This document shows, in pieces, positions 1,566 to 44,504 of a DNA stretch of 64,000 nt. The stretch spans positions 90,065,691 to 90,129,690 of the forward strand of contig NC_090387.1 in the NCBI RefSeq assembly GCF_036365525.1, in the 5' to 3' direction. Every line of letters starts with the position of its first letter. Position 1 is the first letter of the stretch. The translations under genes and the position numbers were made by a program. The stretch comes from Heterodontus francisci (lineage: Eukaryota). The notes below the pieces were generated by a model. That model did no database searches, had not been told where the DNA came from, and worked only from the letters and a program-made list of their open reading frames with translations.

Positions 1566-1679
1566 TCCATGCAGGGCGCAGCCGATGTGATGGCGCCTTA
1601 TGCTGAACTCGAGATAACGAATTCCTTGAAAGCTCCAAGACCAAAGCATCAAGAAAGGACAACGCATGCCCAGATAGGG
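1566..1679 (+). CDS. Penultimate cytoplasmic-tail exon of upstream IgSF receptor gene (gene A); SMQGAADVMAPYAELEITNSLKAPRPKHQERTTHAQIG
   Basis: Acceptor tttgtccttcag, perfect donor GTGAGT at 1680, 114 nt phase 0/0, open. Contains a YAEL motif and aligns by eye with the next exon. Confidence 0.75.
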
Positions 1680-1805
1680 GTGAGTAGCCGAACAAAGAGA
1701 CACGGAATGCCTGTAATTAACAAGTAAAACGGTGAAGCGTATGAAATACCTTAATAGTGCTGTTGTACTTAACACTAATTCTGCCAGGCTTTGGCAATAT
1801 TGGTT

Positions 1806-2260
1806 GTGTCAGCTGTTACTCAGTTGGTAGAACTCTGGCATCAAACTCAGAAGGTTCTGGGATCATCGTCGCACTCTAGAGACTTGAGCATTTAGTGTAG
1901 GTTGTCACTTCAGTGCAGTACTGAGGGATATCTGCTCTGTTGGGGGTTTCATCTTTCGAATGGGACGTTGGACTGAGGTTTTGGTTCCTTCTTTTTAAGA
2001 TGAATCCCGCGACACTATTCGAAGAGGAGCAGTGGAGTTATCCCCAGTTTCCGAGTCAATATTTATCCTTTAATCAACATCACTAAAACAGATTATCTGA
2101 TCACTAACATATTGCTGTTTGTGGAAGCTTGCTGTGAGCATCTTGGCTGCCGTGCTTCCTACAGTATAACAGGTACTACATTTCAAAAAACAATTCTTTG
2201 GCAGCTAAAATCCTTTGGGATGTCTTGAAGTCTCGAAAGGCCCTATATAAATGCAAACTT
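1806..2260 (+). mobile_element. tRNA-derived Deu-type SINE (SacSINE1/LF-SINE-like) in the last intron of gene A
   Basis: tRNA-like head (ctcagttggtag), central conserved block, L2-like tail (gaaaggccctatataaatgca). Related fragments on - at about 3900-4220, 11460-12090, 46420-46620 and 62540-62650. Confidence 0.65.
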
Positions 2261-2357
2261 TTTCTTTTTTTTTTCTATTTGACTTACAGCGCCTAACTTT
2301 ACATTGCGAACAGTTAACATACCGAACTAATTTTCTTCCCAAATATTGATTTCACAG

Positions 2358-2525
2358 ACCAAGCAAAGGACACCTGATGATAAGCTGACTTACGCTACTG
2401 TATATATGTCAGGGTCAAAGAAAACAGCAAAGCCTAATTATAAGGATAAGAGCACGGAGTATGCTCAACTACGGATCGAAAAACAAAGAGCAGACGTTAT
2501 TTACACCGAACCGAAAGCCACGTGA
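2358..2525 (+). CDS. Terminal cytoplasmic exon of gene A with ITIM (LTYATV), ITSM-like (TEYAQL) and VIYTEP motifs
   Basis: Acceptor ttgatttcacag, phase 0. Translates TKQRTPDDKLTYATVYMSGSKKTAKPNYKDKSTEYAQLRIEKQRADVIYTEPKAT* (TGA 2523-2525). Confidence 0.85.
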   Translation, partial: TKQRTPDDKLTYATVYMSGSKKTAKPNYKDKSTEYAQLRIEKQRADVIYTEPKAT

Positions 2526-4296: not shown

Positions 4297-5277
4297 CTTC
4301 TTCTTCTTTGGCCTCCTTGTTTCGGGAGACAATGGGTAAGCGCCTGGAGGTGGTCAGGGGTTTGTGAAGCAGCGCCTGGAGTGGCTATAAAGGCCTATTC
4401 TAGAGTGGCAGACTCTTCCACGGGTGCTGCAGATAAAATTTATTGACAGGGCTGTTACGCAGTTGGCTCTCTCCTTGCGCGTCTGACTTTTTTCGTGCCA
4501 ACTGCTAAGTCTCTTCGACTCGCCATGCTTTAACCCCGCCTTTATGGTTGCCTGCCAGCTCTGGCGATCGCTGGCAACTGACTCCCACAACTTATGATCA
4601 ATGTCACAGGACTTCATGTCGCGTTTGCAGATGTCTTTAAAGCGGAGACATGGACGGCCGGTGGGTCTGATGCCAGCGATGAGCTCGCTGTACATTGTGT
4701 CCTTAGGGATCCTGCCATAGTCCATGCGGCTCACATGGCCAAGCCATCTCAGTCGCCACTGGATTAGTAGGGTGTATATGCTGGGGATGTTAGCCGCCTC
4801 GAGGACTTAAGTGTTGGAGATATGGTCCTGCCACTTGATGCCAATGATCCTCCGGATGCAGTGAAGATGGAATGAATTGAGACGTCTCTCTTGGCCGATG
4901 TACATTGTCCAGGCCCCGCTACCGTAGAGCAAGGTATTAAGGACACAGACTTGCTACACTTGGACTTTTGTGTTCTGTGTCAGTGTGCCATTTTCCCACA
5001 CTCTCTTGGCCAGTCTGGACATAGCAGTGGAAGCCTTTCCCATGTGCTTGTTGATTTCTGCATCGAGAGGCAGGTTACTGGTGATAGTTGAGCCTAGGTA
5101 GGTGAACTCTTGAACCACTTCCAGAGTGTGGTCGCCGATATTTATGGATGGGGCATTTGTGACGTCCTGTCCCATGATGTTCATTTTCTTGAGGCTGATG
5201 GTTAGGCCAAATTCGGTGCAGGCGGCCGCAAACCTGTTGATGAGTCTCTGTAGACACTCTTCAGTGTGAGATGTTAA
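4297..5277 (-). mobile_element. 5'-truncated RTE-clade LINE
   Basis: RT C-terminal peptides (EVVQEFTYLGS; GRIPKD..YSEL..G.RPTGRPCLRFKD), (GAA)n tail, 10-bp TSD tgtgatctat at 4287-4296 and 5278-5287. Confidence 0.9.
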
Positions 5278-6009
5278 TGTGATCTATAAAACATTATAAG
5301 TACGGATACGGTGAATGCAGAATTTAAAGTAAATCCAGAAAGTGTTACTGGAGAACAAAGCTATTTTACTTGCTTAAGTCTGTTTTCTCCACTCGTACTA
5401 CTTCCTGAATTTACTCTTCAATTCTGCATTTCGCTGAACAATGCTATTTAAAATTTTGCCAATACGTGAATTCAGAATTGAAAAGTAAATCCGGGAAATA
5501 GTACCACAGACAAAACAAAACAGAAGGAAAAATTGTTCTCTTAAAACAGATATTTTAAAGTGTTCGTTTTTACTCAGAAGTTGCAATAATTCTTCAAAAG
5601 GGTCTGCAGAATCTAACTGTTGGGTGCATTGTAAATATGTCGGGATTCTCGAATGGGAGAGTTGTGGTATTGAGATGAAGAGCTTCACTGGGCAATTGGT
5701 CTTTGCGAGCCCTTGACGTTTGTTACGTTGTTACCATCCATCCAGCTGTAACCTATTTTCCAGTGTATCACTATAATTCGAGTGCCAATATCCAGGCTTG
5801 AATCAATAATAACATGATTGAATGTGGTTATAGACTTGTCTTTCTTATTTTACTCATTTGTATTATATCATGAATCCAATTCTAAGATTTTGTGCTGGTA
5901 AAATAAATGTATATCAAATTCCTTCCTGTTACGTCTTCATGTTGCAGTTGTTGTAAGCTTAAAGCTCCAGATTTTTATGAACATAAACAGACAGAAAGTA
6001 CATTTGTTG

Positions 6010-7409: not shown

Positions 7410-10400
7410 TACTGGTCAGGGAACGCGCGGTACACTCGGAACACAGGGCCTTCCGGGAGCGGAGCAGAGAGGAGCGGACCTGTGGGGAGAGCGTGGATAA
7501 ATTGAGCTCGAAGATCGAGGCTTTAACTTCCCGGAGGGGGGAAAGCAGTCCAGGCGCGCCGCAGTTGGAAAGAAAGTCCACAGTGGCATTACAGGAAAGT
7601 TGCAAGGTGATTGGTTGGTGAGTGATAGCTGTTAGTGCCTGGAAATAGCCTAAAACAATCAGGGGAAAGTATATATTTTTTAAAAACCTGCCATATAATT
7701 GATAAGGTTAGTACCACTAAAGAGTGTTTTTTTTAATTAGTGTAATTTATTAAGGACTTTAGATTGTAGTGGGTAGTTTTTGGAGTAGAACAAGGCCACT
7801 AGTGTAATTAGTATTTTTTAATTAAGGGAGTAACTAATTAATCTAATGGTAATGGTAACGGTGTGTGGGGGCTGGGTGGGGGAAGACTGGGAGAGCCATA
7901 ATGGTAGGAGATTCAATTGTAAGGGGAACATACAGGCGTTTCTGTGGCTGCAAACAAGGCTCCAGGATGATATGTTGCCTCCCTGGTGCTAGGGTCAAGG
8001 ATGTCTTAGAGCGGCTGCAGGACATTCTGAAGGGGGAGCGTGTACAGCCAGTGGTCGTGGTACATGTCGGTACCAATGACATAGGTAGAAAAAGGGATGA
8101 GGTCCTGCAAGGTGAATTTAAGGAGTTAGGAGGTAAATTAAAAAGCAGGACATATAAAAAGTTGTAATCTCAGGATTACTTCCTGTGCCACGTGTTAGTG
8201 AGCATAGGAACAGGAGAATAGACCAGATGAATGTGTGGCTGGAGAAATGGTGCAGGAGGGAGGGTTTTAGATTCCTGGGACATCGGAACAGGTTCTGGAG
8301 AAGGTGAGACCTGTACAAGCGGTATAGGTTACTCCCAGGCAGGAGCGGAACTGATGTCCTTGCAGAGTTGTTTGCTAGTGCTATTGGGGAGGATTTAAAC
8401 TAAAATGTCAGGGTGATGGGAACCTGAGCGGGGAGACTGAGGAGGAGGAAATGAAAGACAGGAAACAAGAAGGCAAAAGTGGAAGGCATAGATAGAAATC
8501 AAGGGCAAAAAACAAATTGGGCTATATGCGAAATAATGCTAAGATGACTAAGAATGTTAAAAAGACAAGCCTAAAGGCATTGTGTCTCAATGTGCGAAGC
8601 ATTCGCAATAAGGTAGGTAAATTTACCACGCAAATAGATGTAAATGGATACAAAGTTGCAATTACGAAGACATGGCTGCAGGGTGACCAAGGATGGGAAC
8701 TGAACATTCAAGGGTATTCAATATTTAGGAAGGACAGGCAAAAAGGAAAAGGAGGTGGAGAAGTGTTGTTAGTAAAAGAGGAAATCAATACAACAGTGAG
8801 TAAAGATATTAGCTCAGAGAATCCTGATGTGGAATCTGTATGGATGGAGCAAAGAAACACCAAGGGGCAGAAAACGCTGGTGGGGGTTGTATATTGACCT
8901 CCAAACAGCAGTGGTCATGTAGAGGATGACATCAAACAGGAAATTAGAGACGCATGCAATAAGGGTTCAACTGTAACTATGGGTGAATTTAATCTACATA
9001 TAGATTGGGCAAACCAAATTAGGAATAATACTGTAGAGGAGGGATTCCTGGTGTGCACACGTGATGATGTTTTGGAGCAATACGTTGAGGAACCAACTGG
9101 AAAACAGGTCATCCTAGACTAGGTATTGTGTAATGATAAAGGATTAGTTTAGGGATTGATTAAGAAGGGGAAAATAGAGCATGAGAGTAAGCTTGCAGAG
9201 AACATAAAAACTGACTGTAAAAACTTCTATAGATATGTGAAGAGAAAAAGATTAGTGAAGACAAATGTGGGTCCCTTACAGTCAGAACCGGGGGAATTTA
9301 TAATGCGGAACAAAGAAATGGCGCACCAATTAAATGCATACTTGGTTCTGTCTTCACAAAGGGGGAGACAAATTACCTCCCAAAAATGTTGGGAATCATA
9401 GGATCTAGTGAGAAGGACAAACTGTATGAAATCAGTATTAGGGAAGTGGTGTTAGTGAAATTGATGGGATTGAAGGCCGATATATCCCCAGGTCCTGAAA
9501 CTCTACATCCCAACGTACTTAGGGAAGTGGCCCTAGAAATAGTAGATGCATTGCTAGTCATTTTTCAAAATTCTATAGACTCTGGGACAGTTCCAACGGA
9601 TTGGAGGGTAGCTAATGTCACCCCACTATTTAAAAAGGGATGTAGAGAGAAAACAGGGAATTGTAGTCCAGTTAGCCTGACATCAGTAGTGGGGAAAATG
9701 CTGGAGCCCATTATAAAAGATCTAATAGCAGAGCACATGGAAAACAATGACAGGATCGGACAAAGTCAACATGGATTTACAAAAGGGAAATCATGCTGGA
9801 CAAATCTACTGGGATTTTTTTAGGATGTAACCAATAGAATAGATAAGGGAGAACAGTGGATGTGGTGTATGTGGACTTTCAGAAGGCTTTCGATAAGGTC
9901 CCACATAAGAGATTAGCGTGCAAAATTAAAGCACATGGGATTGGGGGTAAGGTACTGACATGGATAGAGAATTGGTAGGCAGACAGGAAACAAAGAGTAG
10001 GAATAAACGGGTCTTTTTCCAAGTGGCAGGCAGTGACTAATGGGGTATCACAGGGATCAGTGCAAGGACCGCAGCTATTCACAATACATATTAATGATAT
10101 AGATGAGGGAATTAAATGTAATACATCCACGTTTGCAGATGACACAAAGCTGGCTGGGACTGTGAGCTATGAGGAAGATGCAGAGAAGCTCCAGTGTGAT
10201 TTGAACAGGATAAGTGAGTGGGCAAATAAAGGGCAGATGCAGTATAATGTGGATAAGTGTGAGGTTATCCACTTTAGTGGCAAAAACAGAAAGGCAGATT
10301 ATTATCTGAACGGCAATAGAATGGTAAAGGGGGAGGTGCTGCGAGACCTGGGTGTCCTTGTGCACCAGTCGCTGAAAGTAAGCATGTAGGTGCAGCAGGC

Positions 10401-11057
10401 AGTTAAGAGGCAAATGGTATGTTGGCCTTCATAGCGAGAGGATTCGAGTACAGGAGAAAGGATGTCTTGCTTCAATTATACAAGGCCTTGGAGAGACCAC
10501 ATCTGGAGTATTGTGTGCAGTTTTGGTCTCCTTATCTGAGGAAGGATGTTCTTGCTGTGAAGGGAATGCATCGAAGGTTCACCAGACTGATTCCTGGGAT
10601 GGCAGGACTGATGTTTGAAGAGATAGTGGGTCGATTAATATTGTATTTGCTAGAGTTTAGAAGGATGAGCGAGGATCTCATAAAAACCTACAAAATTCTA
10701 ACAGGATTGGACAGAGTAGATGTAGGAAGGATGTTCTCGATAGCAGGGAAGTACAGGACCAGGGGTCACAATCTAAGGATAAGGGGTAAGCCATGTAGGA
10801 CTGAGATGAGGAGAGATTTATTCACCCAGTGAGTGGTGAACCTATGGAATTCTCTACCACCAGTTGAGGCCAAATCATGAAATATATTCAAGAAACAGTT
10901 AGATATAGTTCTTGGAGCTAACGGGGAAAAGGGTTATGGGGAGAGAGCGGAAACAGGGTACTGAGTTTATATGATCAGTCATGATCGTATTGAATGGCGG
11001 AGCAGGCTCGAAGGGCCAAAGCGCCTACTCCTGCTCCTATTTTTCTTTGTTTCTATG
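7410..11057 (+). mobile_element. Near full-length decayed CR1 LINE (ORF1 SGNH esterase, ORF2 APE + RT; internal deletion near 9150)
   Basis: IMVGDSIVRG..CLPGARVKDV..VVVHVGTND (esterase); CLNVRSIRNK..ITKTW (APE); DWRVANVTPLFKKG, GVSQGSVQGP, FADDTKL (RT). Confidence 0.92.
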
Positions 11058-20960: not shown

Positions 20961-21989
20961 CATACGAACATACGAATTAGGAGCAGATGTCGGCCATTCA
21001 ACCCCTCATGCATGCTCCACCATTCAATAAGATCATGGCTGTTCTGTTTGTGTTTCGAATTCCACACTCCCATCTACCCCGATAACCTTTGACGACCTTG
21101 CCTAACACGAATCTATCTACCTCCGCCTTAAAAATATTCAATGACCCCGCCTCCCCCAACCTTCTGAGGCAGAGAGTTCCAAAACCGCACAACCATTTAA
21201 GAGAAAAATAATCTCCTCATTTCTGTCCTAAAAGGGCGGACCCGTAATTTTAAAACAATGCCCCCTAGGACTCACCCACAAAAAGAAACATCCTCTTCAC
21301 ATCCGCCTTGTCAAAACCGTTCAGGAGCGTATATACTTCAAATAAGTCTCCCCACACTCTTCTAAACTCCAATGGAAACAAGCCCAGTCTGTCCAACCTT
21401 TTCTCATAAGACAATCTGATCATTCCAGGTATCAATCGACTAAACCTCCTGTGAACCGCCTCCAACACATTTACATCTTTCCTTAAATATGGAGACCAAA
21501 ACTGCACACAGTATTTGAGATGTGGTCTCACCAATGACATGTATAATTGAAGCAAATAATCCTTTTTTTAAAATTATTTTGAATTCCTCGCATTATAAAG
21601 GATTGTTATCCATAAAGCATTCCATTAGCCTTTTTTATTAATTGCCGTACCTGCAGACTAACTTTTTGTGACTCATGCACTGGAGCACCTCGATCCCTCT
21701 ACACCTCGGAATTCTCCAGTCGTTGCCCATTTAAGTAACGCTCTGTTTTCTTTTCTTCCTCCCAAAGTGAACAACTTCACATTTTCCCACATTATTCTGC
21801 ATCTACCAGATTTGTGCCCACTCACGCAACCTATCTATATACCTACCTACAACCTCCTTATGTCCTCATTACAACACACTTATCTTTGGGTTTTCTGCAA
21901 AATTAGCGACCATGCAATTGCTCCCCTCATCTAAGTCATTGACATAAATTGTAAAAAGTTGAGTGCCCAGCACAGACCCCTGCAGGACT

Positions 21990-22235
21990 GCGTGGGTTTC
22001 CTCCGGGTGCTCCGGTTTCCTCCCACAGCCAAAAGACTTGCAGGTTGATAGGTAAAGTGGCCATTACAAATTGCCCCTAGTATAGGTAGGTGGTAGGGGA
22101 ATATAGGGACAGGTGAGGATGTGGAAGGAATATGGGATTAGGGTAGGATTTGTATAAATGGGTGGTTAATGGTCGGCACAGACTCGGTGGGCCGAAGGGC
22201 CTGTTTCAGTGCTGTATATCTAAATCAAATCAAAT
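21990..22235 (+). mobile_element. 5'-truncated HE1-like V-SINE
   Basis: gggtttcctccgggtgctccggtttcctcccaca V-domain and gggccgaagggcctgtttcagtgctgta tail. Confidence 0.85.
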
Positions 22236-27465: not shown

Positions 27466-27759
27466 CATGTCTCTATTTTCAGCAATATTCAAGTTCTGTG
27501 CTACCAAATGACAATTTGGTTATGTTTGTTTAGTCTGTCTAATCGTTATAATTATCTGTTTCCTTTAGGCATCAAGCTGGAGTTTTAGTATATAGCAGGA
27601 AAAGGCCAGGAATTTGATCAGTGCTGCTTCAGCTCATCCACAGCAACTTTACAAGAAGTGCGACTAAAACATTGTTTCAGGGATATTTGGATTAACCTTA
27701 AGTACAATAATTATCATGTTACATGAAAAGTGACGGAACCTTCCTGACATACATAAAAT

Positions 27760-29473: not shown

Positions 29474-31297
29474 AAAACAAGAAATGCTGGAACCATTCAG
29501 CAGGTCTAGCAGCCTCTGTGGAAAGAGAAGCAGAGTTAACGTTTCGGGTCAGTGACCCTTCATCGGAAGTTCCGCCTGGCTGAACTTGTTCTCACATTGA
29601 ACAACTTCTCCTTCAACTCCATGCACTTCCTTCAAGCAAAAGGTGTCGCTATGGGTACCCGCATGGGTCCTAGTTATGCCTGTCTTTTTGTGGGATATGT
29701 CGAGCATTCTTTGTTCCAGTCCTACTCAGGCCCCTCCCCCAACTCTTTTTCCGGTACATTGATGACTGTATCGGTGCCGTTTCCTGCTCCCGCCCCGAAC
29801 TGGAAAACCTTATCAACTTTGCTTCCAATTTCCACCCTTCTCTCACCTTTACATGGTCCATCTCTGACACTTCCCTTCCCTTCCTCGACTTCTCTGTCTC
29901 CATCTCTGGGGATAGGTTGTCTACTAATATCCATTATAAGCCCACCGACTCCCACAGCTATCTCGACTACACTTCTTCACACCCTACCTCCTGTAAGGAC
30001 TCCATTACATTCTCCCAGTTTCTCCGTCTCCGACGCATCTGCTCTGATGATGCTACCTTCCATGACGGTGCTTCTGATATGACCTCCTTTTTCCTCAACC
30101 GAGGATTTCCCCCCACTGTGGTTGACAGGGCCCTCAACCGTGTCTGACCCATTCCCTGCACCCTACACTCACCCCTTCCCCTCCCTCCCACAACCATGAC
30201 AGGGTTCCCCTTGTCCTCACTTTTCACCCCACCAGCCTCCATATCCAAAGGATCATCCTCCGCCATTTCCGCCACCTCCAGCGTGATGCCACTACCAGTT
30301 GCATCTTCCCCTCCCTTCCCCTGTCAGCATTCCGAAGGGATCATTCCCTCCGCGACACCCTGGTCCACTCCTCCATTACCCCCACCAACCCATCCCCGTC
30401 CCATGGCACCTTCCCCTGCAATCGCAGGAGGTGCAATACCTGCCCATTTACCTCCTCTCTCCTCACTATCCCAGGCCCCAAACACTCCTTTCAGGTGAAG
30501 CAGCGATTTACTTGTACTTCTTTCAATGTAGTATACTGTATTCGCTGCTCACAGTGTGGTCTCCTCTACATTGGGGAGGCTAAGCGCAGACTGCGTGACC
30601 GCTTTGTGGAACATCTCTGCTCAGTCCGCAAGCAGAACCCCGAGCTTCCCATTGCTTGCCATTTCAACATTCCTCCCCCCCACCCCATCCCCACCCGCTC
30701 TCATGCTCACATATCTGTCCTGGGATTGCTGCAGTGTTCCAGCGAACATCAACGCAAGCTCGAGGAACAGCATCTCATTTACCGATTAGGCACACTACAG
30801 CCTGCCGGACTGAACATTGCGTTCAATAATTTCAGAGCATGACAGCCCCCCATTTTACTTTCATTTTTAGTTATTTTTTTCTTCCTTTTTTTAACATTCT
30901 TTTTTACATTTTTTACAATCTTTTTTTTTTGCATTTATTTCATTTCATCTTTGTTTGTTCAGTTTGCTTACCCACTGTTTTTTTCAGGTTTGCACTTGCT
31001 GCTGTTCAATATTCAGTGTATTTACACCTAATCTGTACTAATGCTTTGTCTTTCAACACACCATTAACATATTGTTTGCCTTTGCTCTGCGACCTTTTGG
31101 TCAGCTATGTAGCCTGGTCCAATCTAGACCTCCTTTGTTATCTCTTGCCCCACCCCCACCTCACTTGCTTATAACCTGTGACTTTTCTAATATTTGTCAG
31201 TTCCGATGAAGGGTCACTGACCTGAAACGTTAACCCTGCTTCTCTTTCCACAGATGCTGCCAGACCTGCTGAGTGCTTCCAGCATTTCTTGCTTTTA
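29474..31297 (+). mobile_element. Penelope-like retroelement, 5'-truncated (RT + GIY-YIG) with inverted pLTR ends
   Basis: LVLTLNNFSFN..Q.KGVAMGTRMGPSYACLFVG, RYIDD, HYKPTDSHSYL, NVVYCIRC..C.LLYIGE.KR.L.DRF.EH. About 95-bp inverted repeats at 29474-29568 and 31201-31297. Confidence 0.93.
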
Positions 31298-34330: not shown

Positions 34331-34376
34331 ATGTCTATGTGTCAATGCGTGTGGGCCCTGGGGATTATTTACGAAG
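34331..34376 (+). CDS. Candidate proximal leader exon of gene B (MSMCQCVWALGIIYE, phase 1)
   Basis: 46 nt, 190-bp intron to the V exon, upstream Ets (CACTTCCT 34103) and CCAAT (34144) motifs. The donor AAG|gtgttc is weak. Confidence 0.3.
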
Positions 34377-34449
34377 GTGTTCCCTGCAATTATCGGCGCT
34401 GTCTTATTTTTCCTTTTGTTTCTTCCAATCAATCTTCCATTTTTTGGTT

Positions 34450-34450
<1 letters not shown>

Positions 34451-34510
<60 letters not shown>
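34451..34510. repeat. (CTAT)n microsatellite
   Basis: About 15 perfect CTAT units. Confidence 0.97.
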
Positions 34511-34566
34511 GCGTGTCCACATATATTTTATCTATATTTTGTAACTACATGTTTAATATTTTACAG

Positions 34567-34878
34567 TTACTTCCGCTACCGTCTCGCAAACTCCTGAAAG
34601 TACCAATGTGTTGGCCGGTACAGATGTTACTTTTCATTGCAAGGCGAGCTCTGTTCAGAATAATTTAGACGTGCTTGTTTATTGGTGGAGACTTGGCGAC
34701 AATGACTTACTACAATCAGTTTCTGACGGCAGAAAACAATTCTTTCCTTTTAAAAACGGAACGGCTTCCTTTCAGATCCTCAATGTCCGGTTCTTCGACT
34801 CTGGATGCTATTACTGCGGCGTGGGATACACAAGAAACACGATCGTAAATGGAACCGGATCGAAACTTGTCGTGCTCG
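34567..34878 (+). CDS. Gene B: V-set Ig domain exon with germline-joined J-like G strand
   Basis: ttttacag acceptor, G|gtaagc donor, 312 nt phase 1/1. TVSQTP..VTFHC..VYWWR..ASFQILNV..DSGCYYC..NGTGSKLVV. Confidence 0.93.
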
Positions 34879-35679
34879 GTAAGCGGCCTTGGGGAGAGTT
34901 GCGGCTTTTGTCATTATAGAATGGTATATATCGTGTCATACGTTGTTCTGATTATTTAGTGAACTGATCCATAACGTTAATTTATGGAAGAGGAATGGGG
35001 AACATTATTTAAAATCAGCCCCCACACCATATCGCGGTCAGCACGCGCACTATGATATTTTATTTTTATTCATATATATTATTTATAAGTTATCTGACGC
35101 AAGGCTCCAGGACACTATACAGAAGACGGATCTTATGGCAAAAGAGCGGTATGCAGTAGCAGTAAGGACCTTGAATGGCTGGCAAATGAATAGAGAACAA
35201 ATTATATTTTACAACCATAACGCCCTTACGTATGCACTCTACAATTCGATTGAGAAAGCGATGAGTGCCATATGCTTGTCCTGTCACCTTCAAAGATTAT
35301 GGTCACCAGATTAAACAAACTGTTCCGCATGTTAAGTCCTTCGGTGCCCTATCGGTTGAAATTCAATTCATTGATTAGAAGACTGAGTTATTACTGTAAA
35401 AGTAATGATACTGAATATTGCGAGATGCAACCCCATGTCCCTGGGAGAGCTTTCTACATACATGGCTAAACGTTTAGCGAACCCGGACAAAACGTTTACA
35501 ATCTCTAAGTAGTTAAATAAACTCCAGGTAAGCTTACAATTCGGTCGAAGGGACTGTCTTGATCATTTCTGCACACCCGATTTGACACTCGCCTGGAATT
35601 ATGTTGTATGATTATCGAATCCAACCTATGGAATTTGATGTGCTACTCCCTAAACTGAGGTCAGACCAGGTCAATTGTT

Positions 35680-35860
35680 GAAAGCAAAATAGTGCGGATG
35701 CTGGAAATTTGAAATAAAAACAGAAAGTGCTGGATGTACTCAGCAGGTCTGGCTGCAACTGTGGGGAGAGAATGGTCATCTACCAGAAACGTTAACTCTG
35801 TTTATCTCTCCATAGATGCTTCCCGACCTGCTGAGCATTTCCAGCACGATTTGTTTTTAT
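35680..35860. mobile_element. Penelope pLTR-derived inverted-repeat remnant
   Basis: aaaaacagaaagtgctgga..ctcagcaggtc / gacctgctgagcatttccagca..gtttttat hairpin, similar to the ends of the 29474 element. Related pieces at about 16190-16300 and 45770-45870. Confidence 0.75.
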
Positions 35861-36129
35861 ACAGGTCTAATGTTGACCTTGCGATACACCAGGATGGAAG
35901 AAGCTGTGACTGGGCATTCAACTAGTTCCCACTTTTAGCTCCACGCATCATCCCCTCAAACTTCAGTTTCTGTTATTCCCTTCGAATTAAATTTCGAACA
36001 AGTTGTGCTTTTTCTGCTTTAAAACTTTTGAGGGAACATTATTTTTCTCCACTTACAAGTATCGCGGGCGCAAAGTTTCGCTTCTTTGGGCAGTAATAAT
36101 TTCCCCCGTTTTCACAAATTTACAAATCC

Positions 36130-38050
36130 TAGAATCATAGAATGGTTATAGAGTAGAAGGGTACTATTCATCCCTTCGTGTTTGTGCTGGCTCTCTGAAG
36201 GAGCAATTCCCCTAGTGTCACACCCCCGTCTCCCCTGAGCACCACCTCCACATCCGTAGCCCTGCACATTCTTATTTTTCAGATAATAATCCAATTCCCT
36301 CTTGAATGCCTCGAGTGAACCTGCCTCCACCACATTCTCAGGCAGTGAATTCCAGTGCTTGCTTTTCCTCACGTCGTCATTGTTTCTTTGGTCAATTACA
36401 TTAAATCGGTACCCTCTGGTTCTCGATCCTTTCACCAATGGAAGCAGTTTCTCCCTATCTATTCTGTCCTGACCCCTCATGATTTTGAATTCTATCAAAT
36501 CTCTTCTAAACCTTCTCATCTAAGGAAAACAGTCCCAACTTCTCAATCTATCTACGTAACTGAAGTTCCACATCCCTGGAAACATTCTCGTGAATCTTTT
36601 CTGCATTCTTCCTAACACCTTCGAATCCTTCCTAAAGTGTGCTGCCCAGAACTGGACGTAATACTCCAGTTTAGGCCACACCAGTGTTTCATAGAAGTTT
36701 AAGTTCCTTGCTTTTGTACTCTATGCCCCTATTGAGAAAGCCTAGGTTACTATATCCTTAATTAACTCTCAACCTGTCGTTCTATTTTCAATGACTTATG
36801 CATATATACACCCAGGTCCCTCTGCTCCTGCATCCACTTCAGAATTGAACCCTTTGTTTTACAGTGTCTCTATGCATTTCTTCTCCTAAAATGAAACACT
36901 TCAATCTTCGCTGCATTAAATTGCATCTGCCACTTGTCCACCCATTCCACCAAACTTTCGATGTTCTTTTGAACTTCTACACTATCTTCCTCAATGTTCA
37001 TAATGTTTCCAAGTTTTGCACCGTCTGCAAAATTTTGAAATTGTGCTCTGTACACCAAGGTCTAGATCAGGGATCCTAGCACCAACCCCTGGGGAGTTCC
37101 ACGAAAACCTTCCTCCAACCCATTAACAACTACTCTCTGGTTCCTGTCACTCAGACAGTTTTGCGCCCATGTTGCTACCGTCTCTTTTATTCCATGAGCT
37201 ATAACTTTGCTCACATGCCTGTTATGCAGCATTTTATTAAATGCCTTTTGGAAGGCCATGCACACCATTAAAACAAATTTGCCCTCAGCAATCCTCTCTG
37301 TTACCTCATCAAAAAACTAAAGCAAGTTAATTAAACAGAAATTGCCATTAACAAAACCATGCTTTCCTTCCTTAGTTAAACCATATTTGTCCAAGTGACT
37401 GTTAATTTTGTCCCGAATTATTGTTTCTAGAAGCTTTCCCGCCACCAAGGGTAAACTGACTGGCCTGTAGTTATTGGGCTTGTCTTTGCAGCTGTTTTTG
37501 AACAAGCGTGTTATATTTGCAATTCTCCAGTCTTCTGGCATTACTCATGACTCTAGGAAGATTGGAAGATTATGGCCAGTGCCTCTGCAATTTCCACTCT
37601 CACTTCCCTCAGTATCCTTGGAAGCATCTCATCTGGTCCTGGTTTGTTATCAACTGTAAGTACAGGCAGCCTATCCAATAGGTCCTCCTTATCAATTTGA
37701 AATCTTTCAAGCGACTGAACTACTTCTTCTTTCACAATGACCTGCGCAGCATCTTCTTCCTTGGTAAAGACAGATGCAAAGTAATCATTTAATACCTCAG
37801 CTATGCCCCCTGCCGCCATGTGTAAATCCCATTTTGGTCCCTCATCGGGCCCACTCCTCCTTTTAGAACCCGTTTGCTATTTGTATGCCTATAGAAGACT
37901 TTTGGATTCCCTTCTTATGTTAGCTGCCAGTCTCTTCTCATACCCTGCTTCTCTTATTTGCTTTTTCAATTCCCGTCTGAGCCTTCTATATTCAGCCTGG
38001 TTCTCAGTTGTATTATCCTCTTGACATCTGTCATAAGCACAATTTTTCTT
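36130..38050 (-). mobile_element. CR1 LINE fragment in the V-C1 intron
   Basis: PEDWRIANIT.LFK, LNDYFASVFTKE, FAD.AKLG peptides. Confidence 0.85.
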
Positions 38051-38462
38051 CTCCGTGTTAATCCTAACGCGATAGTCTGAATTAATATTACCTGCATAAG
38101 TTTTGGTCATTTACTTAAACATGACAATTATAAAACAGAAGGCAATACTGATGCTAGCGTGTGCTAAGCACACCTAAATGCCTAGACGCACTGAATTACT
38201 TTTTCCAGATACTGCAAAATGGTGCTTATCTGCACATTAGTCTGGACATTTATAGTGAGATTCTTATTGCGGATTGTTAAGGGAAAAAGTGTGTATCAGA
38301 ATTGTCGTAACATCTGAAGAACAGATCCTGAAATTCTGTCAATGATTTATTTTTGTGCCTGTGACCAATAATCAAGTGATTCTATTCAGGCAGACAGTGC
38401 ACCCAACGGGACTAAACTGGCAAAATCTAGACAATCAGTGTGTTCTTTAACATGTTCCACAG

Positions 38463-38771
38463 CATCCCCAGAACCCGTGAGACTGATCCCCAAAGAGTCC
38501 GGAACCAACTCATCTGCTCGAACCCTTGTGTGTGAAACGGCTGAGTTCTATCCGGAGTCTCTCACCTTCACTTGGTATGAAAATGACACCAACATTGTGT
38601 CGGAAATCAGCACCATTAAAAAGCTCAATTCGGAGGGAATGTATGAAGCTTCCAGCATCTTGAGAACGACACAGCCAGCCCAGAGCAGGACTGTGTATAC
38701 GTGCGTGGTGTCTCACCTCACGCTGCAGAGTCCAGCCGTGGCTGTTTACATTGCCTCCAGTTCTAACCCAG
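38463..38771 (+). CDS. Gene B: C1-set Ig domain exon
   Basis: ttccacag acceptor, G|gtgaga donor, 309 nt phase 1/1. TLVCETAEFYPESLTFTW..N.EGMY.ASS.L..YTCVVSH.TL (C1-set signature). Confidence 0.93.
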
Positions 38772-39465
38772 GTGAGATACTGATATTTGTCAGCCACTTA
38801 CTATTATAGATCCGCTTTATTTTCTATCAATCATTTTTGTTTCGGAAATAAAACGAACTTTGCAGGAAGTATATTCACAGATTGATTTAACTTGCGAATC
38901 TGAAAAAGAGATAAAGGAAGCAAACATTTCTCATCCTAAGAATAGAGTGTAATCGTTCAAAAGTAAAATGCATTAGACTAATTTTCATCAGACTCAATTG
39001 CTCTCCATTTAACACAGAGAAACGGAGTACATAGAATGACTTTTTATTCATTTTTTAAAGATTTAAGGTGCCGGTCCAGATCAGCTTCTGCGTCAGCTAT
39101 CCCGGTTTCAGTGCGATAGCAGCCGGGAGTGAAGAATGCGGCTGCAATTTGCATCCTATTGCTCTTAGCAGCAAAGTTCATGTTTGTTGTTTCAATGAAA
39201 ATGCAAAAACGTACATTTTAATCCTGCAATGTAGACGATTTGAGTGCCGTAATCAGCCAAAAGCAAGGATCAATGAAGGTTTATACCATTCACAGTCAGC
39301 GTATGGACGCACTGAAGATATAAATCGTGCAATTAACAGATTATTTTCAATAAACTGGTTGCATAACACTGCATTTAATGAGGAGCTGGTCATTTATTAT
39401 TCCTATTATTAGCCATAATAATCTTGTGATCATGATTTGTAATATCTGTATTGTGATTCTTATAG

Positions 39466-39579
39466 GCCATGGACATGTGCCCCTTTACCTCCTGATTTCT
39501 GGATGTGCAGGAACGTTAGTGATATTTCTAGCCCTCGTTACTTTCATTGGGAAGTGTTGCCAACTCAGTATCCGCAAAG
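39466..39579 (+). CDS. Gene B: transmembrane exon GHGHVPLYLLISGCAGTLVIFLALVTFIGKCCQLSIRK
   Basis: ttcttatag acceptor, G|gtaagg donor, 114 nt phase 1/1. About 23-aa uncharged hydrophobic stretch followed by K/CC/RK. Confidence 0.88.
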
Positions 39580-39749
39580 GTAAGGAGTCAGCGTATGTAG
39601 CTTCCTTGTGATACATTGCTAATGACCAAACAAACAACATGACGCCAGAGAAAATTTTGGGAATTGAACTGTGTTGAGATGTTAAGCAGCTGTAATTAGT
39701 TCCACAATCTGAAACAAATAAATTGTCCAACAGTCAGTCAAATCAACTT

Positions 39750-41700
39750 CAACATAAGAACATAAGAAACAGGCGCAGGAGTAGACCATTCGGCCCCTCG
39801 AACCTGCTCCACCATTCAATATGATCATGCTTCAACTCCATTTTCCCACCCGCTCCCCAAATCCCCTCATTCCCTGCGAGATCAAAAATCTATCCATCTC
39901 AGTTTTGAACATACTCATCGATGGAGCATTCACAACCCTCTGGGGTAGGCAATTCCAAACATTGAGAACCCCCTGTCCTCATCTCAGTCCCAAATGATCG
40001 ACCCCTTATCCAGAGGCTGCACCACCATGTTCCAGATTCCCCAGCCAGGGGAACCAATCTCTCAGTGTCTACCCTGTCAAGCCCCTGCAGAATCGTGTAT
40101 GTTTCAATGAAATCACTTCTCATTCTTCAGAACTCCAGAGAGTATTGTCCAATTTACTCAGCCTCCCATCATTGCACAATTCTCTCATCTAATGAACCTA
40201 TCTAATGAACCTTTGTTATACCATTAACAAGGCAAGCATATCCTTCCTTAGATTATGGAGCCCAAAACTACGCTCAGTACTCCAGATTTGATCTCACCAA
40301 GCCCTATACTATTGCAGCAAGACTTCTTATTCTTGTACTCCAGTCCCCTTGCAATAAAGGCCAGGATGCAGCTTACCTTACGAATTGCTTGCTGTACCTT
40401 CATGCTAACTTTCTGTATTCCTTGTATGAGTACAGCCAAGTCTTTGTGAACATTAACATTTAAAAGTCTCATGCCTTTTAAAAATATTCTACTGTTCTAT
40501 TCTTACTACTAAAGTGAATAACCTCACATTTACCTGTATTATACTCCACCTGTCACCTTGTTGCCAACTCAGTAAATCTGTCGATATCTCTTTGTAGCCT
40601 TTTTGTGCCCTCCTCACAGTCTACATTGCCACCTAACTTGTTAACATCAGCAAACGTAGATATGTTACTTTCCATCTCTTCAGTAAGTCATTAATGCTGA
40701 TTGTAAATAACTGAGGCCCCAGCACTGATCCTGGCGGCACTCCACAAGTTAAACCCTGCCAACTTGAAAACATCCCGTTTATCCGTACTCTCTGCCTCCT
40801 GTCAATTAACTAATCCTCCATCTGTGCTGATATATTATCCCCAACTCCATGAGTCCTTATATTTATCGAATTCGGTTGAAAATGCAACTACAATCCATCT
40901 ACTGGTTCCCCTTTATCCACCCTACAATGTAAATCCTCAAAAAAGTCTAATGAATTTGTTAAACGCGATCTCCCTTTTGTGAAAACCATATTGAAGTTGT
41001 CTGATCATGCTACAACTTTCTAATTGCACTGTTAAAACTTCCTTAATAATAGATTTCAACATTTTCCCGATGGCTGATGTCAGGCTAACTGTCCTGTAGT
41101 TCAGTTGTTTTCTCTTCCCTTCCTTTCTTGAATAGCTGCGTTACATTTGCTAATTTTGAATCTGCTGGGACTGTTCTAGAATCGAGGGAATTTCAGAAAA
41201 TCATAACAGTACATCCACTATCTCGGCACCAACCTCTTTTAGTACCCTTGAATGTAGGCATCCAATCCTGGGGATTTTTTAGCTTTTAGTTTCTTAGGTT
41301 TCTCTTTTTTTCCACTGATATTAATTATCATAGGTTTCTCATGCGTATTAGCCCTTTGGTTACCCTCTATTTCTCGTATGTCAATATGCCTCCCACTGTG
41401 AAGACAGACACAAAATATTTGTTCAACATCTCTGCCATTTCTTTATTCGCTATGATAACTTTTCCTTTCTCTGCCCCTGAGGGATCAATGCTTCCTTTGG
41501 CTACACTCCTTTTATATACATGTCAAAGCTCTTACAGTCTGCTTTTATATTCCTGGCCAGTTCACACTTATGTTGAATTTTCTCCCCTTTTTATTGATTT
41601 TTTTGTCGCCCTTTGCTGGTTTCTAAAACACTCCCAAGCCTCAGATGTACTATTATTCTTTGCAACATTATAAGCCTCTTCTTTTAATTCAGTACTATCC
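39750..41700 (-). mobile_element. CR1 LINE fragment
   Basis: MRSDFIETY.IL.GLDRVD, QQAIRK..ILAFIARGLEYK peptides; CR1 tail at about 39755. Confidence 0.85.
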
Positions 41701-42127
41701 TTAATTCACCAAAGAAACCATCAAAAATTTAAGAGGTGTTCATGTGCATTTTGTTGCCATTTTGATGATGTTTTGTAGTTTTGAATCAGTGATCCCCTGT
41801 ACTATGGGGCGAACACATTTCAGGAACTCTAACATTAGATTTTGTTTTATGAACTGTGATCCTCAATGCGGAATTGGTTGAGACAAAGTTGGATTTCCCT
41901 GCATCCCGTGGTTCACTTCTTAATGTATGATCAATATTTGATTTACATTTCATTCGCTGCCTACGAAAATAAAGAAGGCCCAAGCCACTTCAAAGAACAG
42001 ATGCGGTTCTCTACTACATTTTCAAAAATGTTCAAAGTATAATATTATCAGGAATGTTATAACAAGCGTATTTAAATTATGTGCCATATACAATTATTAT
42101 GTGCCTGATTTATTGCTAAATGTTTAG

Positions 42128-42159
42128 GTGCACGAGGAACCACCGGAGAACATCAATAA
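42128..42159 (+). CDS. Possible short cytoplasmic exon of gene B (GARGTTGEHQ*)
   Basis: tgtttag acceptor. In phase 1 it stops at TAA after 10 codons. No supporting donor seen. Confidence 0.25.
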
Positions 42160-42199
42160 ATTCCCATCAGTCTCAGTACCTGCTTTAAACAGTCCACGT

Positions 42200-42620
42200 C
42201 ATGTACAGTACGGGTTAGATGCTGACCGCAGTTCCCTCGACACTATCGCACCAAACACACCGAGAACAGGTGCAACACAGTTTTGTTACAAAATGAATCT
42301 CCCTCAACACCGCCCTGTCAAAAACTCCCGGGGCAGCTGCAGTATAGGTTAGATACAGAGTAAAGCTCCCTCTGCACTGACCCATCAAACACTCCGAGGG
42401 CAGGTACAGCACGGTTTAGATACAAATGAATCTTCCTCTACACTGCCCTGAAAAACTCCTATGGCAGGTACAGTATGGGTTAGATATAACAAAGCTCCCC
42501 CCACACTCTGATGAAACACTTAGGGACAGTAAAGAAGGATTAAGTACAGAGTAAAGTTCCCTCAAGCACTTCTAGAGGAGTTACAGCACTAGATACAAAA
42601 TGAACTTTCCTCCACCCTGG
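42200..42620 (+). repeat. Degenerate tandem repeat, unit about 65-70 bp (..gggttagatacagagtaaagctccctct.cactg.cccatcaaacactcc..ggcaggtacag..)
   Basis: About six recognisable, diverged units. Confidence 0.8.
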
Positions 42621-42914
42621 CCTATTAGTAGATGCAATGCTAGTGTAGACTGATATCCCATTACTCTGTTGCAATAAATTGGGTGAAGCCCCTCCCTATG
42701 CTAAATGCCACCATTAGTCCATACTATTTTCTCCCCAGCCTCTCGCTGACTACTCGCTAAATTCGCTGCCGCAGATTGCTAATTCGTCAATGTTGATTTT
42801 TAGTTCATTGTACATTTGATGCTGCAAGCCAGAACACGATGAGTTAGATTAATATTGTCGAAGAAGTGCAATCATCTATCAATGCAAGTCACAGAAAAAT
42901 CGTAGGTCCCATAC

Positions 42915-43410
42915 AACAACAACAACAACTTGTATTCACATCTGGCCCTTTACGTAATAAATCACCCTTCACAGGAGCGTTATCAAACAACATTTGTCAC
43001 GGAGTCAAATAAGGAGACATTAGGACGCATATCCAAAACTTAGTGAGATAGGTTTTAAGTAACGCATTAAAGGAGGAAAAATAGGTATAGGGTGGAGAGG
43101 TTTAGGAAGGGAAATACAAAGCTTATGACCACGTCAACTGAATATCAAGGATACTCAATAGGCCAGAAATGTAGAAGCACAGATATCAGAGTGGTGTAGA
43201 GATGGAGCTGGTTGCAGAGATAGACAGAAATGAGGCCATAGAGGGTTTTGAAAACGAGAGTTAGAATTTTTAAATCGAGGCATTGCTTAATCGGAAGCCA
43301 ATGTCAGAGAGAGAGCACAAGGCTGATAGTTGAATGGGACTTAGTGTGAGTTCGTAGATGGGAAGCAAAGTTTTGGATGGTCTCAGGCTTATGGAGGGTA
43401 GAAGTCACTG
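42915..43410 (-). mobile_element. L2 LINE 3' fragment
   Basis: (aac)n tail; reverse-complement similarity to 14800-15200. Confidence 0.7.
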
Positions 43411-44319
43411 TGGAATCTACTTATTGTGGTCTCAATATTGATGAAACATTTGTTGGTATGTCATTGAAGCCATGTATGAAGCACACACTGGGCAAAGTCT
43501 TTTGCACGTATAACATTTTCGGCCATTGGGACCATTTCTCAGCGCGACTCTGCTCGGGTCTGCGCTGCGTCAGCAGGGAAGAACTTCTGGAAATGGGAAT
43601 GAGCACATCACCTCCACATTCGCCGTCTAGTTAAGGGCAGCAGGAGGAACAGAGAAATAGCCAAACGAGAGCGCTCGCCAGCATCTCCACAGGGAGAGGT
43701 GGGTGCTGCTTGAAGCAAAAGGTGAGCGATTGGGCGCCTCAGAATGGAGGCGCTATCAAAAGGCTGCAGAAGTTTCGAAAGTAAAGAAGTCCCAGAGTTG
43801 TTTGCGCCATTAGTGTGGAGAGGGAACCCTCCCACAAGAATGATTTGGGCTGCAGCACTAGCTGTTCCAAACTTGCGGCCCCACAGGCTCAACAAAGTCG
43901 GTTCCAAATGATTGCCGGGTACCGGACTCAGCAACGCCAAGTAAACTAAACTGGTGTGGAAAGATACCCCTTAAGTGCGGCCTTAATTTAATTGATTAGA
44001 TACCTGCTTCCTTGCAGTGGTTGCCGATTCCCAAGGTAACCCGTTGATGGAAAACACGCCTGGAGGCGGAGTTGTTCACTATTTTCTCACCAGCATCACC
44101 ACCCACCCCTCACGCCCACCCCCCCTCCTCTGCACCCCCATATACACTGCCCCTAAAGCCTTCTCCAAGGGGGCGGGGAGATTTCATCCAATGTGAGCAC
44201 AATGCGGTTGGTCATTGAATATAGACGAACATGATGCTGCTTTTCAGTTGTGCTTCATGTATAAATCTGCAAGTCAAATCAAAGCAATGAGCTGACTTTA
44301 AAACTCTTCGATTTTACAG

Positions 44320-44504
44320 AGCATGGAAGCGGCTCATGAAAATACATCCCGAGGATGTAAGCGAAGAGAACAAAAGGTGTAAGCAGGTGGAAAAACAAAA
44401 CAATGAGGAAGGAACTTAGGCTCATCTAACAGAACAAAGAGAGAAACTACCATCATTTAACTGAATCGTTCGGGCCGTATCTATCCGAGTTACGCATGAA
44501 TAAA
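44320..44504 (+). pseudogene. Degenerate cytoplasmic-tail exon of gene B (SMEAAHENTSRGCKRREQKV*…QVEKQNNEEGT*AHL) with AATAAA at 44499
   Basis: ttttacag acceptor, phase 0. Starts SM like the 1566 exon and shares EKQ with the 2358 exon. TAA 44380 and TAG 44417 sit at the Tyr-motif positions. Confidence 0.65.

What the first reader, a model, noticed from the sequence alone, without database searches (positions are those of the whole stretch)
1566..2525. Hidden inhibitory tail of an upstream paralogue (ITIM/ITSM exons absent from the ORF track)
Seen: two phase-0 exons with good splice sites carry APYAEL, LTYATV, TEYAQL and VIYTEP. Established: LxYxxV is an ITIM and TxYxxL is ITSM-like, both SHP-1/SHP-2 docking motifs as in SIRPalpha and PD-1. 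Inference: an inhibitory receptor gene ends here. Its similarity to the 44320 exon makes it a tandem paralogue of gene B.
Basis: partly seen in the sequence, partly recalled or inferred. Interest (0 to 1): 0.7.

Follow-up and report, generated by a model that had tools for sequence, protein, structure and literature searches.

The report
Shark SIRP-like inhibitory paired receptor tail
These are the last two spliced exons of an intact, already database-annotated shark gene for an antibody-like surface receptor whose tail lines up with that of the brake receptor SIRP-alpha, so it likely acts as an 'off' member of a large cluster of likely on/off immune receptor pairs.

Summary
Confirmed, but not hidden. 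Exons 1566-1679 and 2358-2525 end an open 7-exon gene (leader, VJ, C1, TM, three tail exons; 373 aa). Its first five exons lie 2.8-8.3 kb upstream of the window. The model equals RefSeq XP_067906080.1 (horn shark, 'SIRP-alpha-like'). Contigs of one probable-RNA sample join 1679 to 2358 and three upstream introns at GT..AG. It is a paralogue of gene B (V 48%, C1 41%), but the cited likeness to exon 44320 is not above chance. The gene sits among about 40 V-C1 genes on contig C17. Relatives occur in sharks, rays and chimaera and split into ITIM-tailed and transmembrane-Arg types, as paired receptors do. The family tail aligns with reptile/bird SIRP-alpha tails (HHalign 97%, four tyrosine motifs, beyond motif-preserving shuffles); this gene lost the second tyrosine. 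SIRP membership is not shown: one C1 instead of two, no SIRP-locus synteny found, unresolved trees, and a V domain closer to turtle multi-VJ receptors. Phosphatase binding and ligand are untested. This scan found the family before in at least 8 genomes; my paper searches found no description.

The parts
1566..1679 (+). Exon 6 of gene A (second tail exon, 38 aa, phase 0/0). Exons 1-5 lie upstream of the window at G000:C17 90057344-398 (leader), 90057559-879 (VJ), 90058881-9192 (C1), 90060913-1023 (TM), 90062807-847 (first tail exon)
   Evidence: joints into and out of it; model identical to XP_067906080.1
1593..1610 (+). Tyrosine motif 1 (Y292, APYAEL); aligned with the first SIRP-alpha-type ITIM but Ala at -2, so not a strict ITIM
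   Evidence: Tyr in 25 of 27 family tails
1665..1667 (+). His314, where 19 of 27 family tails have tyrosine motif 2: lost in gene A
1680..2357 (+). Last intron, 678 nt, GT..AG; holds a repeat at about 1770-2300 (many unrelated contigs pile up there)
   Evidence: joint 'skips 678'; depth table
2358..2525 (+). Exon 7, coding part (55 aa plus TGA); near-exact contigs continue to about 2879 as probable 3' UTR
2385..2402 (+). Canonical ITIM LTYATV (Y330)
   Evidence: Tyr in 27 of 27; consensus from PMC12151841
2454..2471 (+). ITSM-like TEYAQL (Y353), 23 residues after the ITIM tyrosine
   Evidence: Tyr in 25 of 27
2496..2513 (+). VIYTEP (Y367): not an ITIM, poorly conserved
   Evidence: Tyr in 10 of 27 tails
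27569..27595 (+). Alternative last exon of gene A in RefSeq isoform X2 (XP_067906081.1), which would drop the ITIM/ITSM exon; not checked in RNA here
34331..44339 (+). Gene B, the downstream paralogue (RefSeq XP_067906082.1): exons 34331-34376, 34567-34878 (VJ), 38463-38771 (C1), 39466-39579 (TM, uncharged), 44320-44339 (short end without tyrosine)

Best explanation
The two exons complete an intact, spliced gene for a predicted type I surface receptor (germline-joined VJ domain, one C1 domain, uncharged membrane helix, 116-residue tail) that likely works as an inhibitory member of a cartilaginous-fish paired-receptor family. Inferred mechanism: ligand binding at the V domain would cluster the receptor; Src-family kinases would phosphorylate Y330 (ITIM) and Y353 (ITSM-like); the pair would engage the tandem SH2 domains of SHP-1/SHP-2/SHP-2L and damp activation, as SIRP-alpha does. 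Siblings with a similar V domain but a membrane Arg and short tail (such as the gene just downstream of the window, V 85% identical) would signal positively through a zeta-family adaptor. Shown: gene structure, four splice joints, family, motif conservation. Inferred: surface expression, cell type, phosphorylation, phosphatase and adaptor binding. The ligand is unknown.
For: Open 7-exon model, all GT-AG, identical to XP_067906080.1. V-set 40.4 bits and C1-set 52.5 bits in Pfam. The AlphaFold model has confident V and C1 domains, a helix at 229-265 and a low-confidence tail. Four joints at >=98% identity, including 1679->2358. 41 V and 45 C1 matches, all on C17. V exons under purifying selection among 9 close paralogues, pN/pS 0.45. 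Arg in one TM column in 18 of 83 family proteins; an ITIM pattern in 3 of those 18 against 45 of the other 65 (rows are related, so p=9e-5 overstates). One ITIM/Arg gene pair shares 96-100% DNA identity over the V exon against 76-93% around it. Tail collinear with SIRP-alpha-type tails. SHP-1/2 SH2 binding residues reported conserved across jawed vertebrates (PMC12151841, passages). One zeta-family TM exon exists in the genome.
Against: No binding or signalling test was run. Gene A lacks the family's second tyrosine, its first motif is off-consensus, and TEYAQL is not a strict ITSM. A RefSeq isoform skips the ITIM exon. 20 of 65 non-Arg family proteins show no ITIM pattern, so the two-class picture is not clean. 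PMC4016189 (passages) found no FcR-gamma in sharks, so the adaptor of the Arg members is open.
Confidence: 0.85

Rival explanations
1. The family is the cartilaginous-fish branch of SIRP itself (gene A a SIRP-alpha co-orthologue), moved or expanded away from the tetrapod locus, and may read a CD47-type self signal.
For: Tail profile versus 46 reptile/bird SIRP-alpha-type tails: HHalign probability 97%, E 8e-11, 103 columns, four motifs in register. Those tails score 36.5-59.2 bits on the shark profile; shuffles that keep the tyrosine hexamers reach the real score in 0, 0, 0 and 1 of 500 for four test tails. Top two Atlas hits are SIRP-alpha clusters, 0.97 and 0.96. SIRP-alpha ectodomain is the second PDB hit.
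Against: One C1, not two. SEP-domain and syntaphilin genes lie on C16 and C5, not C17; 200 kb around the C16 SEP gene hold no SIRP-like or family exon, while the same profiles find them on C17. V profile scores: SIRP V 16-32 bits, turtle multi-VJ V 34-53. The C1 tree has the family as one clade (100/99) and SIRP as another (89/84) with no supported join; the V tree is unresolved. The SIRP-beta-type TMs printed carry a mid-membrane Lys; activating-type members here carry Arg.
Confidence: 0.4
2. The family is a separate VJ-type lineage (NKp30-like or related to the turtle multi-VJ receptors), and its SIRP-like tail arose by convergence on SHP binding or by exon shuffling.
For: Turtle multi-VJ proteins are among the best 150 hits of the family profile. 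They have the higher V scores and the same Arg column in a short-tailed member, with an ITIM-tailed partner. The Atlas links one of them to NCR3-like clusters at 0.96.
Against: The turtle ITIM tail scores only 16.6 bits on the shark tail profile. The turtle proteins have no C1. The V tree does not join them to the family. Only one non-SIRP control tail was available.
Confidence: 0.35
3. A non-rearranging relic of the antigen-receptor ancestor (UrIg/PRARP kind), or a light-chain- or TCR-like chain that pairs with another chain.
For: V and J-like strand in one exon, followed by C1. Best PDB sequence hit is UrIg2. Foldseek top hits are Fab chains, mostly light, and TCR chains.
Against: No RSS heptamer or nonamer in or just after the V exon. 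UrIg-like C1 domains group with IgH (95/86), apart from this family. The UrIg-like V scores 12 bits. A long ITIM tail and dozens of copies fit innate paired receptors. The UrIg2 PDB score sums three domains.
Confidence: 0.1
4. Pseudogene remnant or chance motifs.
For: Broken copies exist in the cluster, for example at C17:90.29-90.30 Mb with a stop in the exon-6 homologue and a damaged last exon.
Against: Open frame, spliced contigs, conserved tyrosines.
Confidence: 0.02

Closest known systems
RefSeq model XP_067906080.1 (Heterodontus francisci, 'tyrosine-protein phosphatase non-receptor type substrate 1-like isoform X1')
   Same: Identical to my 373-aa model. Its record's longest contig has the length of C17.
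   Different: Nothing in sequence. The name is an automatic label; siblings are labelled Ig-lambda-like, tapasin-related, NCR3LG1-like or MHC-II-like.
SIRP family (SIRP-alpha inhibitory, SIRP-beta activating; PMC3533184 and PMC9652883, passages)
   Same: Joined VJ-type V plus C1-set ectodomain, clustered paired genes, four-tyrosine tail in register with the family tail.
   Different: V-C1 rather than V-C1-C1; Arg rather than Lys in activating members; about 40 copies; no synteny found with the SIRP-locus markers; CD47 binding unknown; gene A lacks tyrosine 2.
PD-1
   Same: ITIM followed by a T-E-Y-A ITSM-type motif (PD-1 consensus in PMC12151841, passages).
   Different: PD-1 is a single-V CD28-family gene with its own shark orthologue (same paper); this gene has a C1 domain and dozens of paralogues.
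NITR (ray-finned fish)
   Same: Clustered non-rearranging VJ receptors predicted to work as NK-type receptors (10.1101/2021.06.11.448072, passages).
   Different: NITR has V plus an I domain; here the second domain is C1-set. The gar/bowfin NITR cluster is flanked by runx1/donson; the one flanking marker found here is NUDT21.
UrIg / UrIg2 (PMC12227049 outline and term search; PMC10751288 passages)
   Same: Non-rearranging VJ-C1 genes of elasmobranchs.
   Different: UrIg is an Ig-like multi-C1 molecule linked to the MHC or antigen-receptor complex; UrIg-like C1 domains group with IgH.
LILR-type paired receptors and NKp30
   Same: Activating members use a membrane Arg (LILRA with FcR-gamma: PMC3533184, passages; NKp30: recalled).
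   Different: LRC receptors are C2-type (PMC4016189, passages); NKp30 is a single V in the MHC.

Membership tests
ITIM-bearing paired receptor family (functional kind) | Canonical ITIM (S/I/V/L)xYxx(I/V/L) in a cytoplasmic tail after an uncharged TM | tested here: met
   LTYATV at Y330; no Arg in the TM column
ITIM-bearing paired receptor family (functional kind) | Clustered siblings with similar ectodomain, charged TM and short tail | tested here: met
   18 of 83 with Arg, 15 of them without ITIM pattern; gene A versus next Arg gene V 85%; one pair 86 of 88 V residues identical
ITIM-bearing paired receptor family (functional kind) | Recruits SHP-1/SHP-2 and inhibits activation | not testable with these tools
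   Needs phosphopeptide or cell assays
SIRP | N-terminal V domain with J-like strand in one exon | tested here: met
   321-nt exon ending GNGTGSNLAV; V-set
SIRP | Two C1-set domains (V-C1-C1) in the alpha/beta1/gamma type | tested here: not met
   One C1 exon between V and TM; contig joins C1 to TM directly. Shorter SIRP forms exist (recalled), so this is not final.
SIRP | SIRP-alpha tail with four tyrosine motifs in two pairs | tested here: met
   Met for the family; gene A keeps three of four
SIRP | Position beside NSFL1C/SNPH-type markers (marker choice recalled from human 20p13) | tested here: not met
   Markers on C16/C5; no family exon in 200 kb round the C16 SEP gene. Which SEP gene is NSFL1C is inferred from recalled synteny.
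SIRP | V and C1 domains form a clade with SIRP | tested here: inconclusive
   Separate clades, deep branches unsupported; no TCR, IgL, NKp30 or bony-fish rows
SIRP | Activating members use TM Lys with DAP12 | tested here: not met
   Arg column instead versus Lys in the SIRP-beta-type TMs printed
SIRP | Binds CD47 | not testable with these tools
   PF08204 search gave nothing and no control rang: uninformative
PD-1 / CD28 family | Single V domain, single-copy gene | tested here: not met
   V plus C1, about 40 copies
PD-1 / CD28 family | Strict ITSM TxYxx(V/I) | tested here: not met
   TEYAQL has Leu at +3 (definition)
NITR | V domain followed by an I domain with J-like end | tested here: not met
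   Second domain is C1-set, 52.5 bits
Rearranging antigen receptors / UrIg | RSS-flanked segments (Ig/TCR) or C1 domains in the Ig/UrIg clade | tested here: not met
   No consensus heptamer or nonamer; C1 outside the IgH+UrIg clade

The most novel reading that the evidence does not exclude
This family of about 40 genes is the cartilaginous-fish branch of the SIRP lineage. The SIRP-alpha four-tyrosine checkpoint tail would then predate the split of sharks and bony vertebrates, sitting on a light-chain-like VJ-C1 ectodomain and paired with Arg-type activating receptors whose V exons are kept alike by gene conversion. That would give sharks a large, undescribed self/non-self or NK-type receptor system and move the origin of SIRP back from tetrapods.
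Probability: 0.4. Interest if true: 0.7.

Novelty: new variant of a known kind. Interest (0 to 1): 0.42.

Why it matters
The two exons themselves are already annotated. The family is what matters. A 2022 review says the origins of SIRPs remain unknown (PMC9652883, passage), and a 2026 survey places the SIRP family at Tetrapoda (PMC13262535, table passage). NITR homologues were reported as not evidenced in cartilaginous fish and LRC-type genes as not found in sharks. A large paired-receptor cluster in sharks, rays and chimaera with a SIRP-alpha-collinear tail supplies a concrete candidate for both gaps and can be tested with ordinary phosphopeptide and reporter assays.

Tried and rejected
Exon 44320 as evidence of paralogy: not above shuffles, no tail-profile hit. 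Candidate gene B tail exons near 42128 and 45029: looked at, no support. No RNA was laid on gene B. The look-up of sequencing runs listed no holder on record as RNA; X1-X3 are guessed RNA, one sample, one study. The joint 1670/1673->2355/2358 belongs to a paralogue (7 and 20 mismatches on its two sides) and was not counted for gene A. PF08204 (CD47) and PF10637 (OGFOD1) gave no match and no control rang: uninformative. PF01160 gave one weak hit on C5. A bird SIRP-alpha-type query in the genome ran with a stricter first look; its 86 matches are on C34, C8, C23 and one on C17, none on C16, which does not show absence. PDB profile searches were dominated by multi-domain sums; Foldseek gave Fab/TCR chains at low TM-score. 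The first TM-Arg count wrongly scored extracellular Arg and was replaced by the column-based count. 200 kb downstream of the cluster held no further family exon. Complex prediction was not used: no ligand candidate. Paper searches found no description of this family. PMC3709836 and PMID 34981186 (Dornburg and Yoder 2022) are not held, the first UrIg paper and Ohta 2019 were not read, and the one held supplement file of PMC3964593 had no hit for SIRP, ITIM, CD47 or NKp30. A description in those or other subscription papers cannot be excluded.

Full report
Observation. The two exons are as described: 1566-1679 (114 nt) and 2358-2525 (168 nt), both phase 0, with AG acceptors, a GTGAGT donor and a TGA stop. 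They read in one frame with APYAEL, LTYATV, TEYAQL and VIYTEP. The motifs alone prove little: 0.42% of 20,000 shuffles hold both motif types, and the paired pattern occurs twice in the window's six frames.

The gene. The window is G000:C17:90065691-90129690. Searching with gene B's V and C1 exons gave 41 matches (107 of 107 candidates scored) and 45 matches (150 of 316 scored), all on C17, at 70.9-71.0, 76.1-77.1, 88.4-90.3 and 92.5 Mb. One V and one C1 lie 8.1 and 6.8 kb upstream of the window on the + strand. From that DNA I built leader (55 nt), VJ (321), C1 (312), TM (111) and a 41-nt tail exon, which join the two window exons in an open 373-aa frame with all introns GT-AG. Pfam calls the domains V-set and C1-set. 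The model is letter for letter RefSeq XP_067906080.1 of Heterodontus francisci, labelled SIRP-alpha-like, so the tail is not hidden from public annotation. An AlphaFold model gives confident V and C1 domains, one membrane helix and a low-confidence tail.

Expression. Three runs were listed, all one sample, RNA only by guess, two holding the stretch. At 98% identity, one contig of X2 (depth 19.5) joins C1 to TM, and X2 also shows the joints from TM to the first tail exon and from there to 1566. One contig of X1 (depth 8.2; 83 and 47 nt on the two sides) joins 1679 to 2358. All four are GT..AG. X3 shows none of them at that identity. Leader-V and V-C1 were outside the laid stretch. A paralogue's contig uses a donor 6 nt earlier. 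RefSeq isoform X2 ends instead in a short exon at window 27569-27595 and lacks the ITIM exon; I did not test it.

Relation to gene B. Paralogy is clear from the ectodomain: V 48%, C1 41%, 105 of 255 columns overall. RefSeq's gene B (XP_067906082.1) splices TM to 44320 in another frame and stops after six residues, without tyrosine. Closer relatives of gene A lie outside the window, with V identity 75-85%.

The family. A profile search gave 57 proteins; every organism name visible is a shark, ray, skate or chimaera. In a search of 1.84 billion representatives the best 150 were family-like proteins and long multi-Ig proteins. I looked up 20 of the 150: among them are UrIg-like shark proteins, three turtle multi-VJ proteins and a lizard SIRP-like protein (the labels UrIg-like and SIRP-like are mine, from the sequences). 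Among 83 family proteins with a TM (isoforms, near-duplicates and models without TM dropped), 18 have Arg in one TM column. An ITIM pattern occurs in 3 of those 18 and in 45 of the other 65 (rows are related). In this genome the gene just past the window's end has an Arg TM, a 34-residue tail and a V 85% identical to gene A's. Another pair, at C17:88.81 (ITIM tails) and 88.90 Mb (Arg TM), shares 96-100% DNA identity across the V exon and 76-93% elsewhere. One zeta-family adaptor TM exon was found; it looks CD3-zeta-like by recall, and PMC4016189 reports no FcR-gamma in sharks (passages).

The tail. In 27 long family tails (28 chosen by me, one misparsed and dropped), tyrosine is kept at gene A's positions 292 (25), 314 (19; His in gene A), 330 (27) and 353 (25), against a median column conservation of 10; Y367 is kept in 10. 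The family thus has four motifs in two pairs. I fetched reptile and bird SIRPs through the lizard hit and compared 46 alpha-type tails: HHalign probability 97%, E 8e-11, 103 columns, motifs in register. They score 36.5-59.2 bits on the shark profile, and shuffles that hold the tyrosine hexamers fixed reach the real score in 0, 0, 0 and 1 of 500; a turtle ITIM tail scores 16.6. This exceeds motif content and spacing alone, but the control panel is thin and convergence on SH2 context residues is not excluded. The Atlas also ranks SIRP-alpha clusters first.

Against SIRP membership. One C1 domain. Arg rather than Lys in activating-type members. SEP-domain and syntaphilin genes map to C16 and C5, and 200 kb around the C16 SEP gene carry no SIRP-like exon although the same profiles detect the C17 exons. 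The 76-Mb cluster abuts NUDT21. The family V profile prefers turtle multi-VJ domains (34-53 bits) to SIRP V (16-32). Trees give the family's C1 as one clade (100/99), SIRP as another (89/84) and UrIg-like with IgH (95/86), with no supported deeper join; the V tree is unresolved and no TCR, IgL, NKp30 or bony-fish rows were available. So it works like SIRP-alpha, and membership stays open (about 0.4).

Mechanism. Shown: gene structure, four joints, family, conserved motifs, two TM classes. Inferred from established ITIM biology (PMC3533184, PMC12151841; passages): ligand-driven phosphorylation of Y330 and Y353, 23 residues apart, would bind tandem SH2 domains of SHP-1/SHP-2/SHP-2L and damp activation, balanced by Arg-type siblings. 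Ligand and cell type are unknown.

Literature seen. Passages by term search: PMC10751288, PMC11599192, PMC6795676, PMC9652883, PMC13262535, PMC12151841, PMC3533184, PMC4016189, 10.1101/2021.06.11.448072. Outline and term search: PMC12227049. Supplement search only: PMC3964593 (one file). Nine searches returned no description of the family; two relevant papers are not held, and bioRxiv supplements were closed. This scan has reported the same family before, 15 findings in at least 8 genomes, which is not independent support.

Verdict. A real, probably expressed, already annotated gene end. The interest lies in an apparently undescribed chondrichthyan paired-receptor family and its possible link to the origin of SIRP. 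Interest 0.42; new variant of a known kind.

Noticed in passing
window 27569-27595 (+): RefSeq isoform X2 of gene A ends in this small exon 25 kb downstream and loses the ITIM and ITSM-like motifs; a possible non-signalling form.
   Followed up: partly
G000:C17:76.086-76.44 Mb: NUDT21 exons abut the 76.1-77.1 Mb V-C1 cluster, and partial NUDT21 exon copies lie inside it at 76.16, 76.22, 76.37 and 76.44 Mb, apparently co-duplicated.
   Followed up: partly
L080:2441-2740 versus L082 (C17:88.81 and 88.90 Mb): An ITIM-type and an Arg-type gene share 96-100% identity only across the V exon; likely gene conversion.
   Followed up: yes
P0123, P0159, P0164 (turtle proteins): Multi-VJ receptors with automatic labels (NCAM2, FcRL5-like, pIgR-like) form an Arg/ITIM pair with the same TM Arg column as the shark family; possibly an undescribed turtle paired-receptor family.
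   Followed up: partly
G000:C17:89997721-90010928 (P0005) and 89290300-89299700 (P0012): These paralogues lack the exon-6 homologue and keep only the last motif pair; others (P0151, P0071, P0028) carry extra copies of the motif pair, so the tail grows and shrinks by exon units.
   Followed up: partly
P0116, P0147, P0151, P0156, P0171: Some database models are V-TM-tail without C1, suggesting C1 skipping, which would give a PD-1- or NKp30-like single-V form.
   Followed up: no
G000:C17:90290148-90300582 and 88616915-88627378: Damaged copies: truncated or frameshifted C1, stops in tail exons, lost tyrosines.
   Followed up: partly
window 42128-42160 and 45029-45060 (+): Short stretches after AG acceptors that might be decayed tail exons of gene B; neither is supported statistically.
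   Followed up: partly
G000:C17:90036719-90039989 (-): An Arg-TM family gene on the opposite strand, 18 kb upstream of gene A; its database model P0043 has a retroelement-derived N-terminus.
   Followed up: partly
window 4357-5283, 7859-10829, 21268-23733, 29540-30839, 50128-50761: The space between genes A and B and beyond is filled with broken retroelement reading frames (reverse transcriptase- and integrase-like by eye).
   Followed up: no
L137:1480-1620 (C10:79.53 Mb): Only one zeta-family adaptor TM exon was detected in the genome, leaving open whether sharks have a separate FcR-gamma.
   Followed up: partly
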